From the NCBI RefSeq assembly GCF_009914755.1, contig NC_060931.1: a DNA stretch of 64,000 nucleotides; one strand, given 5' to 3'. The position numbers and the translations under genes are program-made. The notes under the pieces were generated by a model. The model saw only the letters and a list, made by a program, of their open reading frames with translations. It had not been told where the DNA came from and did not search any database. Shown in pieces: positions 534-61,289 of the stretch (position 1 is its first letter; every line of letters begins with the position of its first letter). The stretch is from the human T2T-CHM13v2.0 reference genome, Homo sapiens.

Positions 534-3500
534 CTGAAGCAAATAATTTCAATTCCTAATCCAAGTAGTTAGAAGTTAATGATATCTTTTTGCTCCCTAT
601 AAAACCTGGCAGCTCTATCTAAGATGGCGTGTCACAGAAAAATTTCGCCATTTAATCCTTAAAACAAAGTATCCCTTTGCTTCCCCTTATTGTAGAGGAG
701 AGTGATGTTGACATAAAGATCAAACTATTTGCCCTCAAATGCCATTATGAGTGTATAACAGAGAGGGGAAAATGTGCAATTTAGATTAGATTATTGGGCT
801 TCTAGCAGCCTCTCCCTGTGCCAATTATGGGCGACTTTCCATTTACATATAAATAGCTCGGAAATTCCAACACCAATGTACTTGAAAACACTGAATCAAG
901 TAGTTCAGAAAAACATAAATTAGATGCATTTCAATTTAAGGTGTTTACAACAAGCACTCATTCAAGTAAATAAAAGAAATGGAATCAATTTTTATTACAG
1001 AAAGCAACATCTTTTTAAATTATTGAAATTATCCCCACACTGCTCTTAAACCCATCAAGATTTCTTTTGGCATGCTGTTAGTTTCTTTTGCAGGGGAAGA
1101 AAGGATTAAGTAGTTGTATACAGTTGTAGTGTAATGTGGGGGTAGATAATGCTGGTTTTTTATTTCCTCTTTTTTTCTGTGTAAGTCAGAGATGCCTCTT
1201 GAGCTACCTGGGGCCTTACAAAAGACGTAAATAAAACCAGATACACTTTTTCAACATAACTTGCTTTTATCTCTCTGGATAATCCAGTTTAAGTTTTCTG
1301 TCCTTGTCACATTCTCTCCCACTGAAAGACATCTTAGAATGAGTGTAACTTCATTAGCAGTCTCTAACTGCTAACTCACCACAGATTAACCACTCTGTTT
1401 ATTGATCTATTGCTTATAAAGAGCCACTTCAACGCCCACTGCAGTTTCTCAAATGGATTTGATACATGGTATAAACAAACAACTCAGTATGGTAGAGAAC
1501 AAACAATATTGTATATCACTGGTAAGGGCTGAGTTCTCATTTGCTGAATTCTCTTGAGGGTCTAGACAGATACAAGAGAAACGAAGGCTGATGTTGTGTT
1601 GCTTATGTATTGTAATAATATTAGTGATGTTATATATTTTACAAAATACATCACAATTATTTGTTCTTTGAATATCTAAAAATATTTAGTTCACTGAATT
1701 TCACAGATAAAATAGCACAATCTAAAATGACTAGAATGACTCAATAATGATGTGGTTGCGGGAAGGAGGCAGAGAGAAAAAGAAACACTAATTTTATGTG
1801 AATGAAACTGCAGACCATTTTCTGTCACTGGGACGGCTAAAGTCATTTAGTGGGAACTTCCTGGTTTCTTCTCGGAGGGGATTCTGGAGGTACACAGGGT
1901 AGAAATGCTCTTGGTCTACAGACACAGTGAAGAGCTTGCAAAAATGACTACTATGCAAGTTTCATTTTCGACTGATAAATGGTAGAGATTATTGAGTATC
2001 TACTATGTACAGGGAAGTCTAATACTGTTTCTCTATGTGTTACACAATATTCAGGCACATATCTTGATATATCTAAATGAAGAACAAAGAAATCTCAACT
2101 TTACATTTCATGGGGCAGAAGACTCAGAATAGGACGAAATCTAAATTCACAGACTAAAGCGGTATTATTGTTTATAATCACAAAAGCTTGACAACTTAGA
2201 AAGACAGACTAGGAGAAATGATTCCTGAAAAATGAAAGGCAAAAGCAAATGAAACATTTAATAAGGAAATTTAAATTCATGGGTTAAAAATAAGTCATAT
2301 ATTTTACCTTAAAACTCATTTTAAGATAAATTTTCTTGAAGTGTATAGTTTCAAGGTTCATATGGTTAAAAGTTTAAGAAGTTCAAAAACAAATGGAAGA
2401 AATAAATTTAAACGAAAGAATAATAGTATAACAATTGTTAATCAACCTTCCTACACAAATTAAACAATTTAAATGAGATTTTTTCAACGTTAGCCAAAGC
2501 TTGGTAAAGTAGACTTACATTGACAAGTCTAATAACCATTAACTTGGTAAGTCTGTCATATTTTATGAGATTAAGCACACTCATACTGAGCACAGGGTCA
2601 GTGATAAACAGCAAATACTGTATATTGTTTGGCATGAAACTTTTCCCTTGGACTCTCCCACATTCTCTCTCTTCCACTCTTCAGTCTACATATTATACAA
2701 ATTAGATCTTGCAATCAGCATAGGGAAATCTCATTACTGCTGAATATACTTAATAATCATCTTCTTTCTAAACAAAGATAACAGCAAACAGCTCTGAGGA
2801 AATGTTTATGCAAAGAAAAAGCTATGTAGTTTATTTCTAATGAAGATGGTATGACTGTCTGCATAACAGGTTATTAAATACACCATCAAAAGGAGATTCT
2901 CTAAAAAAATAAACTATGTTGAATTTCAAGATGGGCCTCATTATTTAAGAAGTCATTTCCCTAACAGTTTCTAGATGATGCTAACATACCAAACTTTTAG
3001 TTAGTATTCCATGGTTTTCCTTGCATTCTTTCTTTTCTCTTAATATCACACTATGTTGCTAAAGAAAAGGTTATGTATTTTAAAAGAATAAATGACATAC
3101 ATCTGCATATAAAATGATTGGATTTGACATAAGGAAGAAATCTTATGAGCAAGACTGTGAAAACTAAGCTGCAAAATAAGATTTTCTTCAAATGTCACTG
3201 GACTCTGAACCTCCCTTTTAAGAAAATCAGAAATACATCTAATGGATTAGAATATATAGTGCATCAATTAAAATTATACTTACATAAAATATCTATTAGC
3301 CTTCTAAAAGAATACTGCTTTAAAAATATTGCAGAAACTATCCAGACATGACTAATGGGAACAAATATGATTCTTCTAAGTAGTTATAAATCAGCTGTCA
3401 TGATAAAATAGTCACTTATTGCTTGAGTTCTCAATAGATTTAAAAGTCATGGACATTGATCCAATTTCCATAAACCACTGCATAACCTAGGTACAACACA

Positions 3501-5065
3501 GAGTTTAACAGCTTTCATGGGACATAGTTCAAGGATGGTCAAACAGAGAATTACATCAGGGAAGGATCTGGTTTCAGCTCACTGGGAGCAACAGAGATGA
3601 GAGCCGGCAATATCTTCACACTTTTCAAAGTGCTCTTGTGGGTGGTTGGGCCCTCTAGGGAAGTACTCTCTCCATATTGGAGGTGAAAAAATGGAAACAT
3701 AAAAAGGTCAAGTGACATATTTAGATCAAACTATTAGTAAGCCACTGAAGAGATACAGGTAGCTATTTCTTTGCATCAGGTGGCTCTGACCAGAGAGGAA
3801 TCAACTTTCAAAGATTTGTTTTAACCTAAGATCCAAAGGTTTTCACTGAAGTCATCCAGACTACCTAAATTACCCTATCAATGTCTACAGTCCATTAGTG
3901 ATGGTCAAATGTCTTCTGGCTTTTTTGTCATGAATCTAAAAATAGTAAGCCTACCAAGTTAGAAGAAAATGAAATGACTGTTATAGTTAGAAAACAAGGT
4001 ATTTGGGTATTTCAATGTATTGCTCATCATTTTCCATACCAGCTATAATTTCAGCCACTTCAATCCAGCAACACATTTCTGAAACTACTGAAGGAGTCAA
4101 CCTCATCTTACTGATTTTTAAGAAAATTATTGCTAGTCAAACGGAAGAACAGCTTTAAAAACACTGACAGCATAAGTGGCTTCTGGCAGGATTCCAGATC
4201 ATGCTTCTTGGGCAATGTGAAAAGGGAACAAAAAGGCAGTCACTTAAATGAGACAGTGAGAGAATCACAAATCACAGAATCCCAAAACCCAGTGGTCACA
4301 ACTGTTCCTTCTCCCAAGTTCCTGATTCTTTCCAGAAAGCCAGACTGTAGCTCATTCCAGCTCATTACCACAAAAGGAATATTGGATTCTGCCCCAGGAG
4401 AGACTCAATCTCAAGAGCCAAATCACAATGACAAAGATGTGCAGAGTTCAGGATTGAACCTATTGCATCTAATCACTAGCAGAAAATCAGACCACTGAGG
4501 CAATTGTTTTAAATATTAGTCACTTCCTACACTTCCTCCATCATCTAAAATTTTTTTAAAATGTGAAAAAAAAGCCTATAATATGTGCTAAAAACTGATG
4601 CTACTTAAAAAAAAACTGTTTTCCTTTCATTGAACAAACTCTTCTTTCCTTATTTCCCCATTTAATGTGAAAACATATGATCTCATAATGAATGCCAACA
4701 GATGATATACTTAGTTTTATTATTATGAAGTATTTTTTATTCCTTTCTCTTCCTTCACATGGGATCTGTACAGTTAAAAGATCTACACAACAAACATGAG
4801 GAAGTCAGAGAAGATGCCAATTTGACTGTGATTAAAGATTTAGCTATGTAGTCCCTAAAGAAATTGCACTGAGTTGCTATCCCCAAGACTCCAGAGGTTC
4901 CTTTGTAGTAGAGGTGAGCTATGAAGTTCTCAACTATGAAAGGTTAATACAAATGTATTCACTTTATTTATATTAGTAAAACAGGATTAACTACATAGTT
5001 ACCCACTGTATTTACTATACTTTAGAGCAAAAATGCATACAGTAGGAACAATAAATAAAAGCAAA

Positions 5066-5209: not shown

Positions 5210-6527
<1,318 letters not shown>

Positions 6528-59200: not shown

Positions 59201-59520
59201 TATGAGTAACAAGTAAATGTATGGATTTTGTGGAAATATTGCTAGATATTGTTTCACATCGCTAGAAAAGGAGTAAAAGTCAATCCCCTGAGTGAAAAGA
59301 ATGGAGAGAGACATAGAGAAAAGCCAAGATGAGAGACCTTTTTGGATCTACAGAGAAATATAAGGAGAAACATAGGGAAGAATAAAGGAATCTGAGGAAG
59401 AGACAGAGAAAAAAATTTGTCTCATTGATTCCTGACATGTCATCCTTGATTGTGAATTTCTTGGCATAGTGAGATTACTTTTGTTCTTCAAATGATTCGT
59501 ATCTTTCATTAAAAGTAAGA

Positions 59521-60410
59521 CCTTTGGGTATATACACAGTAATGGGATTGCTGAGTCAAATGGTATTTCTGCCTTTAGGTCTTTGTGGAATCACTGTCTT
59601 CCAAAGCAGTTGAACTAATTTACACTCCCAACAACAGTGTAAAAGTGTTCCTTTTTCTCCACAACCTCGTCAGTAGATTGAAGCTAGTTGATTAGGATAT
59701 TTAGCTGTTAACTAAATTTTTGTGGGTTTGCGTCCCATTAATCTAGTAAGGACTCAGTAAGGTGTTTTTTGACTTTTTTAATAGTAGCCATTCTGACTGA
59801 TGTGGGATGGTACCACATTGTGGTTTCTATTTCCATTTCTGTAATGACCAGTGATGCTGAGCTATTTTTCACATGATTGTTGGCTGCACATATTTCTTTT
59901 TTTGAGAAGTGTCTGTTCATATCCTTTGACCGCTTTTTATAAAGACACATGCACATGTATGTTCACTGCAGCACTATTCACAACAGCAAAGATATGAAAC
60001 CAACCTAAATGCCCATCAGTGATAGACTGGATAAAGAAAATGTGGTACATAAACACCAAGGAATACTATGCAGCCATTAAAAAAGAACAAGATCATGTCT
60101 GTTGCAGGGACATGGATGCAGCTGGAGGCTACCATCCTTAGCAAACTAATGCAGGAACAGAAAACCAAATACCACATGTTCTCACTTATAAGTGGGGGCT
60201 AAGTGATGAAAAATCAACAGCCACTGGTGCCTCCTGGAGGGTTAAGAGTGGGAGGAGGGGGAGGATCAGAAAAAACAACTAATGGCTACTAGGGTTAATA
60301 TGTGAGTGATGAAATAACATGCACAAAACCCCGCCCCATGACCCATGTTTACCTTTGTAACAAACCTGCACATATACCCCTGAACTTAAAATAAAAGTAT
60401 TTAAAAAAAA
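59521..60410 (+). mobile_element. 5'-inverted (twin-primed) L1PA/PB 3' end: 59521-59936 inverted, 59937-60410 sense
   Basis: Inverted arm reads ...atatacccaaagg, which in L1 lies just upstream of tataaagacacatgcac where the sense arm starts; L1P 3' UTR and A-tail follow. Confidence 0.9.
59674..59746 (+). pseudogene. MT-TN: Nuclear copy of mitochondrial tRNA-Asn(GTT) (micro-NUMT), followed by a few bases resembling the start of tRNA-Ala
   Basis: 73 nt TAGATTGAAGCTAGTTGATTAGG...TTAGCTGTTAACTAA...TGTGGGTTT..GTCCCATTAATCTAG; anticodon GTT at 59707-59709; about 63/73 identical to human MT-TN as recalled. Confidence 0.9.
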
Positions 60411-60415
60411 GACGT

Positions 60416-60745
60416 GGACTGGTACTGTGGCTCATGTCTGTAATCCCAGCCATTTGGAAGGCCGAGGTGGAAGGTTCGCTTGAGAGCAGGCTGGGCAGCA
60501 TAGAGAGACCCCATCTCTACTCAAAGAAAAAAAAAAGAAAAAAAAAAAAGAAAAAGAAAAATCAGCAGGATATGGTGGCTTGTGCCTGTGGTCCTAGCTA
60601 CTCTGGAAGCTGAGGTAGGAGGAACATTTGAGCCCAGGATTTCGAGGTTATTGCAGTGAACTATGATCATGCCATTGCACGCCAGCCTGGGCAACAGAGC
60701 AAAAACTGTCTCAAAAATAAAGAAAAAAAAATAAAATTAAAACAA
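60416..60745 (+). mobile_element. AluJ with expanded A-rich middle
   Basis: ttgagcccaggatttcgaggttattgcagtgaactatgatcatgcc. Confidence 0.92.
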
Positions 60746-61289
60746 AACCTATAGGTAAATAAGAACCTCTGTTTTTCTCCAATTCTACTTTCCAAAACTC
60801 CTTTGAAAAAGAAAATGAGAACTCTGACCCAACTTGCTTTAGTTCAACATTCTAACAAACAGTCAGTAGTACTACTACTCACCTTACATCATGTTTCTAA
60901 CTGAATTGAGAACTAATCTGTTATTAGAATTAGACCACAAAGGACAAAGTCATTGAAGACCTTCCTAGCACAATGTCAGCCCCTCACCATCAGTGACTCA
61001 TTCATATGTATTTAGCTTTCTGAGCATATCGACTCATTTTTTCCACTAGGCACTGCATTTCTTCAGAGCTCTACTTCTCAAATCATGACAGCAATAAAAA
61101 TTCCGTCATCAAACCTGAACAACCACTACTGTATAAAAGCAACCACTGTCTTGTGCATAAAACTAATTCCTTTTTAAAAATAGTATTTTATTTTTGGCAT
61201 CCCTTGTTGCTGACTATATTGCATTGGTTGGCTCAGCCATCCATCAAACATTCATTTATTTTACAAGTGAATATTGAGTACCTTGTGCA

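What the first reader, a model, noticed from the sequence alone, without database searches (positions are those of the whole stretch)
59674..59763. Single mitochondrial tRNA-Asn captured inside an L1, in an apparently ancestral form
Seen: the antisense L1 sequence ...ccacaacctcgtcag is interrupted by about 90 foreign bases and resumes at tgttttttgacttttt, with a few L1 bases lost and no TSD. The first 73 nt fold as a tRNA with anticodon GTT and start at the TAGATTG 5' end of mt-tRNA-Asn. They continue into TAAGGACT, which resembles the spacer and start of the adjacent mt-tRNA-Ala. A short filler (cagtaaggt) echoes both junctions. Knowledge: NUMTs are captured at double-strand breaks by end joining. 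Inference: several differences from human MT-TN (as recalled) preserve pairing (anticodon stem TTTAG/CTAAA vs CTTAG/CTAAG; acceptor TAGATTG/TAATCTA), so this looks like a fossil of an ancestral primate mt-tRNA rather than random decay. A start at the mature 5' end is compatible with an RNA intermediate, although 2-bp AG microhomology could give the same boundary, and there is no CCA.
Basis: partly seen in the sequence, partly recalled or inferred. Interest (0 to 1): 0.8.

Follow-up and report, generated by a model that had tools for sequence, protein, structure and literature searches.

The report
Old catalogued mitochondrial tRNA-Asn fragment in L1
This is an ordinary, already catalogued 86-base scrap of ancient mitochondrial DNA (the tRNA-Asn gene and the start of its neighbour) that was pasted into an older L1 repeat when a chromosome break was repaired.

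Summary
Window 59674-59746 is a 73-nt mitochondrial-type tRNA-Asn(GTT), found by ARAGORN in mitochondrial mode and by Rfam tRNA (31.6 bits against a threshold of 29). It continues, as in mtDNA, through a 1-nt spacer and the first 10 nt of tRNA-Ala to 59757. Six bases of unresolved origin follow. The insert replaces about 7-9 nt of an antisense L1, has no target-site duplication, and shares a 2-bp AG overlap with the L1 at its left edge. These are end-joining signatures.

The "ancestral form" reading also holds. The copy differs from human MT-TN at 10 of 73 positions. Six of those ten window states are the majority state among 27 other nuclear mtDNA copies in the same genome, and only two are private or nearly so. 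Likelihood placement puts 99.9% of the weight in a young clade that includes two copies dated after the rhesus split.

The locus is not new. It appears in Tsuji 2012 (hg18 chr7:110512693-110512778), Telonis 2014 (hg19 chr7:110725459-110725531, 86.3%, 10 mismatches) and Hoser 2020 (hg38 chr7:111085403-111085475, "nimtRNA"). Nothing supports an RNA intermediate. My only addition is that Tsuji's age class "o" (before the mouse split) looks too old.

The parts
59521..59673 (-). Antisense L1 (ORF2 3' region), left part of the inverted L1 segment, up to the left junction
   Evidence: Aligns to a contiguous L1 copy in locus L044 at 3459-3611 (81%) and to one in L022. Alignment.
59672..59673 (+). AG shared by the L1 and mtDNA (2-bp microhomology at the left junction)
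   Evidence: 24 of 27 other NUMT rows have AG directly before the tRNA-Asn 5' end. The uninterrupted L1 copies read ..CCAG at this point. Tsuji's NUMT span (86 nt) includes these two bases.
59674..59746 (+). mt-tRNA-Asn(GTT) copy, 73 nt
   Evidence: ARAGORN -mt and -mtmam. Rfam tRNA 31.6 bits. Printed with the same letters in the Telonis 2014 and Hoser 2020 tables.
59747..59757 (+). mtDNA spacer (T) plus the first 10 nt of tRNA-Ala, contiguous as in mtDNA
   Evidence: Aligned with the same stretch of 23 larger NUMTs. 2 of the 11 positions differ from the majority, at alignment positions 79 and 82.
59758..59763 (+). TAAGGT: six bases of unresolved origin at the right junction
   Evidence: Two readings were tested. 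(a) A copy of AGTAAGG from 11 nt upstream: 511 of 5000 random fillers do as well. (b) The tRNA-Ala D-arm after a 6-nt deletion (6 of 7 match): 461 of 5000 do as well. Both.
59764..59938 (-). Antisense L1 continuing to the inversion junction
   Evidence: Aligns to L044 at 3624-3792, same strand as the left part, leaving about 7 L1 nt unaccounted for at the insert site.
59938..60410 (+). Sense-oriented L1 3' end with A-rich tail (the other half of the inverted L1)
   Evidence: Window 59938-60163 aligns to L044 at 3441-3217 on the opposite strand, 17 nt away in L1 coordinates from where the antisense part starts. Tail read.

Best explanation
An 84-86-bp fragment of mitochondrial DNA was used as filler when a double-strand break inside an already resident, old L1 was repaired by non-homologous end joining. 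The fragment comprises tRNA-Asn, the 1-nt spacer, the first 10 nt of tRNA-Ala and possibly 2 nt of the light-strand origin.

The left joint used a 2-bp AG overlap. The right joint gained 6 extra bases. About 7-9 L1 bases were lost.

The fragment was taken from the mitochondrial genome of an anthropoid or catarrhine ancestor. I put this at roughly 25-45 million years ago, which is an inference resting on split dates I recalled. Because nuclear DNA changes more slowly than mtDNA, the copy froze an intermediate state of the tRNA. It has since picked up about 2-4 private substitutions.

Shown: the anatomy, the mtDNA origin, the intermediate character states and the catalogue entries. Inferred: the repair pathway, the DNA (not RNA) nature of the donor, and the date. 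The copy most likely does nothing today.
For: (1) Identity as a mtDNA copy. Telonis 2014 supplement: 86.3%, 10 mismatches to MT-TN 5657-5729, flagged YesInNUMT. Tsuji 2012 table: mt 5647-5732, minus strand, intron, unique.

(2) The copy crosses the tRNA 3' end into the spacer and the next gene and has no CCA. The donor was therefore not a mature tRNA.

(3) Junctions. About 7-9 L1 nt are missing and there is no duplication. AG overlap. The same classes are described for 90 primate NUMTs: 53 of 152 fusion points had at least 2 bp of microhomology, 26 were blunt with an insertion, and 41 of 90 had deletions.

(4) Intermediate state. Eleven tRNA positions separate the old-clade majority from the young chr1 copy (compared by hand). 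The window has the younger state at 5 (positions 48, 59, 61, 65, 66) and the older state at 6 (27, 43, 45, 57, 67, 68). The chr9, chr2 and chr17 copies have 5, 6 and 7 younger states.

(5) Tree. The window plus chr9:104.7M has UFboot 94. With chr2:155.7M and chr17:23.2M the support is 99. In the placement test over 51 branches, 0.9988 of the likelihood weight lies in or at the stem of that clade.

(6) Age classes. Tsuji classes the chr2 and chr17 copies as 'b' (after rhesus, before gibbon) and the chr9 copy as 'a'. Classes b-f were checked against genome alignments, and 108 of 120 were as predicted.

(7) The host L1 is old. Its 3' end is 74-84% identical to 39 other copies, though only 40 of 2979 candidates were scored.
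Against: - No primate genomes or mitogenomes were available, so the empty pre-insertion site and a direct placement among living primates were not seen.
- The window contributes only 84 nt to the tree. The sister relation to the chr9 copy rests on very few sites (mainly position 82).
- The mtDNA start coincides with the mature tRNA 5' end if the AG overlap is chance (1 in 16). A DNA-break model does not predict that.
- Tsuji 2012 assigns age 'o' (before the mouse split), which disagrees with my dating.
- My matching of the T2T places to Tsuji's hg18 rows is by chromosome, mt range, length and strand, not by liftover.
Confidence: 0.9

Rival explanations
1. RNA-templated capture. A light-strand precursor RNA that RNase P had already cut at the tRNA-Asn 5' end, but that was not yet cut at its 3' end, was reverse transcribed (for example by L1 reverse transcriptase) and the cDNA was joined into the break.
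For: The mtDNA-derived part can be read as starting exactly at the mature 5' end, 59674. Asn and Ala lie on the same strand and are adjacent, so such a precursor would carry both (gene order seen).
Against: No CCA, no poly(A) and no target duplication. The AG before the start is also what mtDNA has at that place in 24 of 27 copies, so the boundary is equally explained by 2-bp microhomology. Tsuji's alignment in fact extends past the tRNA end. A tRNA boundary at one end of one NUMT is not rare among the several hundred rows I read in Tsuji's table.
Confidence: 0.04
2. Captured during the L1 retrotransposition itself, by a template switch of the reverse transcriptase in the twin-priming event that inverted this L1.
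For: The L1 is an inversion-type insertion. The antisense and sense parts are 17 nt apart in L1 coordinates, so template handling was irregular in this event.
Against: The insert lies about 150 nt from the L1's left end and about 175 nt from the inversion junction, inside otherwise continuous L1 sequence that resumes about 7-9 nt further on. The mt copy has 2-4 private or rare changes in 84 nt. The L1 is 16-26% different from other copies, which suggests a much older L1.
Confidence: 0.02
3. The filler was copied from another nuclear NUMT (for example the chr9:104.7M copy), not from mitochondrial DNA directly.
For: The chr9 copy is the closest relative, at 7 of 84 differences, and is the only other row with C at position 82. 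Placement weight on its branch is 0.77.
Against: Four of the seven differences are window-side and three are chr9-side, as expected for two independent captures of similar mitochondrial haplotypes. Mitochondrial DNA is far more abundant as filler than one nuclear locus (general knowledge).
Confidence: 0.02
4. The copy is a working element: an intronic mitochondrial-derived tRNA ('nimtRNA') that modulates splicing, or a Pol III transcript.
For: Hoser 2020 lists it as a nimtRNA and reports splicing effects of such elements in reporter constructs (abstract and passages). The cloverleaf is still recognised. A T6 run follows 18 nt downstream, at 59765-59770.
Against: It is a single copy deep inside a roughly 900-kb gene (IMMP2L, from the hub annotation) and lies antisense to it. 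The D-stem is weakened at positions 12 and 24, and the fold is no more stable than shuffles. No expression data were examined.
Confidence: 0.02

Closest known systems
NUMT (nuclear mitochondrial DNA segment); this very locus in Tsuji et al. 2012, NAR (PMC3467031), hg18 chr7:110512693-110512778
   Same: Same place, same 86-nt extent (mt 5647-5732 in their numbering), minus orientation relative to the mtDNA reference, intronic, unique.
   Different: They class its age as 'o' (before the human-mouse split). My placement among other NUMTs puts it next to class 'a' and 'b' copies.
Mitochondrial tRNA-lookalike (Telonis et al. 2014, Front Genet, PMC4189335), hg19 chr7:110725459-110725531
   Same: Identical 73-nt sequence and identical 50-nt flanks. 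86.3% identity and 10 mismatches to MT-TN. Flagged as lying in a known NUMT and not in RepeatMasker's tRNA list.
   Different: Nothing differs. The paper gives no junction or age analysis for this locus in the passages I read.
nimtRNA-Asn (Hoser et al. 2020, Genome Biol, PMC7722341), hg38 chr7:111085403-111085475
   Same: Same sequence. Infernal 37.3, tRNAscan-SE 79.6, anticodon GTT, in an intron of a transcript (ENST00000489381).
   Different: The splicing effects they describe came from reporter constructs carrying one to five nimtRNAs from the mouse Myo3a intron. This is a lone copy far from the exons listed in the hub annotation, and no function was tested.
NHEJ-mediated NUMT integration (Hazkani-Covo and Covo 2008, PLoS Genet, PMC2567098)
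   Same: Microhomology of 2 bp or more on one side, a short insertion on the other, a small chromosomal deletion.
   Different: Their cases have the empty site in an outgroup genome. Here the pre-insertion state is only inferred from other L1 copies.

Membership tests
NUMT | Sequence homologous to mtDNA and colinear with it across a gene boundary | tested here: met
   tRNA-Asn, spacer and the start of tRNA-Ala are aligned with 23-27 larger NUMTs. 86.3% identity to human MT-TN per Telonis.
NUMT | Lies in a nuclear chromosome, flanked by nuclear sequence | tested here: met
   Flanked on both sides by L1 sequence on chr7.
NUMT | End-joining junctions (microhomology, blunt joins or small insertions; no poly(A); no long target duplication) | tested here: met
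   AG overlap, 6-nt insertion, about 7-9 nt deleted, no duplication.
NUMT | Empty site in an outgroup species | not testable with these tools
   No primate genomes are held.
mt-tRNA-Asn (as a gene fold) | Cloverleaf with anticodon GTT recognised by mitochondrial tRNA models | tested here: met
   ARAGORN -mt and -mtmam. Rfam tRNA above the gathering score.
mt-tRNA-Asn (as a gene fold) | Folding energy better than shuffled sequence | tested here: not met
   z = -1.47; 17 of 200 shuffles fold as well; the MFE does not form separate D and anticodon arms.
Retro-copied mature tRNA | Ends at the mature 3' end with CCA added | tested here: not met
   After ...TCTAG comes the mtDNA spacer and tRNA-Ala sequence, not CCA.
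nimtRNA (Hoser 2020) | mt-tRNA homolog inside a recognisable NUMT within an intron | tested here: met
   Listed as such. The hub annotation places the window inside IMMP2L with no exon.
nimtRNA (Hoser 2020) | Effect on splicing of the host transcript | not tested
   No expression or splicing data were examined.
Twin-priming L1 inversion (host element) | An inverted 5' segment and a sense 3' segment that are adjacent in L1 coordinates | tested here: met
   Against one contiguous L1 copy (L044), the antisense part spans 3459-3792 and the sense part starts at 3441 on the other strand, a 17-nt gap.
Twin-priming L1 inversion (host element) | Target-site duplication flanking the whole element | tested here: inconclusive
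   Only a loose resemblance between the left flank (about 59514-59527) and sequence after the A-rich tail and Alu (about 60756-60770), by eye.

The most novel reading that the evidence does not exclude
The exact start at the mature tRNA-Asn 5' end is not a coincidence. The donor was an RNase P-processed light-strand precursor RNA that was reverse transcribed and used to patch the break. That would make this a rare trace of RNA-mediated NUMT formation in primates.
Probability: 0.04. Interest if true: 0.5.

Novelty: already known. Interest (0 to 1): 0.08.

Why it matters
It matters little. The locus is one of several hundred fixed human NUMTs and sits in three published tables. It is a tidy small example of two textbook points: NUMTs are end-joining filler, and they freeze past states of mtDNA. 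Here the frozen state includes a T-A to C-G compensatory change in the anticodon stem of tRNA-Asn.

The one useful by-product concerns dating. The published age class for this short NUMT ('o', before the mouse split) is probably wrong. Placing short NUMTs among longer, dated NUMTs of the same genome gives a usable relative age when no mitogenomes are to hand.

Tried and rejected
(1) A direct comparison with human mtDNA was not possible. The held assembly has 24 contigs and no mitochondrial record.
- The young chr1 NUMT did not turn up in a DNA search with the chr17 copy or in a COX1 family search.
- The 17-nt modern-type anticodon-arm motif gave 0 hits, and with 1 mismatch only unrelated places plus two old NUMTs.
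- I therefore used the chr1 copy printed in Hoser's supplement, compared by hand, and Telonis's mismatch count.

(2) Origin of the last six bases. Neither the local-repeat reading nor the 'tRNA-Ala with a 6-nt deletion' reading beats chance: 511 and 461 of 5000 random fillers do as well.

(3) Thermodynamic support for the fold is not significant.

(4) A possible hotspot of NUMT ends at the light-strand origin.
- In the parts of Tsuji's table that I read (parts 1, 3 and 4 in full, and only search passages from part 2), four rows have an end at mt 5729-5738: chr7 5732, chr11 5729, chr12 5733 and chr21_random 5738.
- My rough estimate of the uniform expectation is under one.
- The window was chosen after looking, and with about 1650 such windows a few such clusters are expected. 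I rejected it as evidence.

(5) Dating the host L1 by subfamily was not possible, because no repeat library is held. There is only a crude identity range to other copies (40 of 2979 candidates scored).

(7) Not read: part 2 of Tsuji's table apart from search passages, Tsuji's PDF supplement (listed as unreadable), and the .xls/.doc supplements of Hazkani-Covo and Covo 2008 (file types the session notes say cannot be read).

Full report
WHAT IS THERE

The + strand reads antisense L1 up to ...cctcgtcag (59673). Ninety bases follow (59674-59763), and antisense L1 resumes at gttttttgac.

ARAGORN in bacterial mode finds no tRNA. In metazoan and in mammalian mitochondrial mode it calls one mtRNA-Asn(gtt) of 73 bases at exactly 59674-59746. 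Rfam's tRNA model matches the same 73 bases end to end, at 31.6 bits against a gathering score of 29, E = 1.1e-4.

Folding energy alone would not have singled the stretch out. The MFE is -14.5 kcal/mol, z = -1.47, and 17 of 200 shuffles fold as well. The MFE merges the D and anticodon arms.

ORIGIN

A search of the window's own assembly with the 90 bases gave 23 other places at 76-92% identity.
- When aligned, these are larger nuclear copies of mtDNA. Upstream they carry the light-strand-origin hairpin and tRNA-Cys, and downstream tRNA-Ala.
- The window's homology to them runs through the 1-nt spacer and the first 10 nt of tRNA-Ala, to 59757.
- Directly before the tRNA 5' end, 24 of 27 other copies read AG, as does the L1 at 59672-59673. 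The left joint therefore has a 2-bp overlap, and the true mtDNA start may be 59672.

The last six bases (TAAGGT, 59758-59763) have two possible readings. They extend a local repeat (AGTAAGG at 59745-59751 and 59756-59762), or they match the tRNA-Ala D-arm after a 6-nt deletion (6 of 7). Random fillers do as well in 511 and 461 of 5000 trials, so their origin is open.

HOST AND JUNCTIONS

Two unrelated, uninterrupted L1 copies lie in the flanks of loci L044 and L022. They show that the L1 is continuous across the site apart from about 7-9 missing bases, and nothing is duplicated.

The L1 itself is an inversion-type insertion. Measured against the L044 copy:
- The antisense part covers 3459-3792, with the gap at the insert.
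- The sense 3' part starts at 3441 on the other strand, 17 nt away.

The insert sits about 150 nt from the L1's left end and about 175 nt from the inversion junction. It is therefore not at an L1 junction.

The L1 3' end is only 74-84% identical to 39 other copies (40 of 2979 candidates scored). This is an old element.

The pattern of microhomology on one side, a short insertion on the other and a small deletion is the pattern Hazkani-Covo and Covo (2008, passages read) describe for 90 lineage-specific primate NUMTs. They report 53 of 152 fusion points with at least 2 bp of microhomology, 26 blunt with an insertion, and 41 of 90 with deletions.

IS IT AN ANCESTRAL STATE?

The assembly as held lacks the mitochondrial record, and I could not retrieve a modern-like NUMT from it.

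Two printed sources fill the gap.
- Telonis et al. 2014 (supplement file 1, searched) list this locus with 86.3% identity and 10 mismatches to human MT-TN 5657-5729.
- Hoser et al. 2020 (supplement file 2, part 1) print the tRNA-Asn copy of the young chr1:629081-634924 NUMT.

Comparing that copy with the window by hand gives the same count of 10. The differences are at tRNA positions 12, 24, 26, 27, 43, 45, 57, 58, 67 and 68.

Among 27 other NUMT rows, the window's state at those ten positions is shared by 1, 3, 6, 26, 24, 26, 16, 0, 23 and 24 rows respectively. One pair of rows, chr2:130.7M and chr2:131.8M, is a duplicate of a single insertion.
- Six of the ten are therefore the common fossil state.
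- One (position 26) is shared with the three youngest copies.
- Two (positions 12 and 58) are private or nearly so.

In structural terms:
- Pair 27-43 is T-A in the fossils and C-G in the young copy, a compensatory double change.
- Positions 67 and 68 make A-T pairs with T6 and T5 where the young copy has G-T wobbles.
- Positions 12 and 24 weaken the D-stem, in the standard 10-25 register that I assigned by hand. They look like decay.

AGE

I built a reference-anchored alignment of 1333 columns with 27 NUMTs plus the window's 84 nt.

The maximum-likelihood tree groups the window with chr9:104.7M (UFboot 94). These two group with chr2:155.7M and chr17:23.2M (99). A branch of 0.076 separates this clade from 24 older rows.

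I tried all 51 attachment branches on the backbone.
- 0.77 of the likelihood weight falls on the chr9 branch.
- 0.074 falls on the stem of chr2+chr17.
- 0.074 falls on the stem between the young and old copies.
- 0.041 falls on each of chr2 and chr17.
- The total inside or at the stem of the young clade is 0.9988.

Eleven tRNA positions separate the old majority from the young chr1 copy (by hand). The window and chr9 have the younger state at 5 of them, chr2 at 6 and chr17 at 7. This is an orderly series.

Tsuji et al. [quoted passage not shown] They date the chr9 copy (5428-6023) to class 'a'. Classes b-f were checked against genome alignments, and 108 of 120 were as predicted. I matched their hg18 rows to my T2T places by chromosome, mt range, length and strand, not by liftover.

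Together this points to an insertion around or somewhat before the split between Old World monkeys and apes. I put that at about 25-45 million years, using split dates recalled from general knowledge.

Tsuji's own label for this 86-nt NUMT is 'o', before the mouse split. I think this is an artefact of placing so short a sequence. Their text says that NUMTs falling off the line to human were pushed to the preceding split.

DNA OR RNA?

The copy crosses the tRNA 3' end into the next gene and has no CCA, so a mature tRNA is excluded. A 5'-processed precursor RNA cannot be excluded from sequence alone. Nothing requires it, however: there is no poly(A) and no duplication, and the AG overlap explains the boundary.

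ALREADY KNOWN

The locus is in three published tables.
- Tsuji 2012: hg18 chr7:110512693-110512778.
- Telonis 2014: hg19 chr7:110725459-110725531, with the same flanks as the window.
- Hoser 2020: hg38 chr7:111085403-111085475, in numtDNA chr7:111085401-111085486, class 'nimtRNA'.

Noticed in passing
window 59521-60410: The host L1 is an inversion-type (twin-priming-like) insertion. An antisense segment is followed by the sense 3' end, and the two are 17 nt apart in L1 coordinates when measured on a contiguous L1 copy in locus L044.
   Followed up: partly
window about 60415-60720: An Alu-like element sits right after the L1's A-rich tail, followed by more A-rich sequence. Recognised by eye and not tested.
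   Followed up: no
window 59672-59757, Tsuji 2012 table: The published age class 'o' (before the human-mouse split) for this NUMT conflicts with its placement next to class 'a' and 'b' NUMTs and with its 86% identity to human MT-TN.
   Followed up: yes
G000 (whole assembly): The held assembly has 24 contigs and no mitochondrial record. The young chr1 NUMT, whose tRNA-Asn copy is printed in Hoser's hg38 table, was not found by DNA, family or motif searches.
   Followed up: partly
Tsuji 2012 hg18 table, mt 5729-5738: Four NUMT rows (chr7, chr11, chr12, chr21_random) have an end within 10 nt of the tRNA-Asn / light-strand-origin boundary in the parts I read. The window was chosen post hoc, and I do not consider it significant.
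   Followed up: partly
L015 (G000 C3:155690162-155690237): Another NUMT ends 3 nt after the tRNA-Asn 3' end and also abuts L1 ORF2-like sequence. Tsuji lists it as chr3:154120184-154120347, mt 5655-5814, class 'o'.
   Followed up: no
window 59547-59638: Sub-threshold Rfam match to mir-562 inside the antisense L1 (25.8 bits against a gathering score of 100). Most likely a chance or repeat-derived resemblance.
   Followed up: no
window 59765-59770: A run of six T from the L1 lies 18 nt downstream of the tRNA-like sequence and would read as a Pol III terminator. No evidence of transcription was sought.
   Followed up: no
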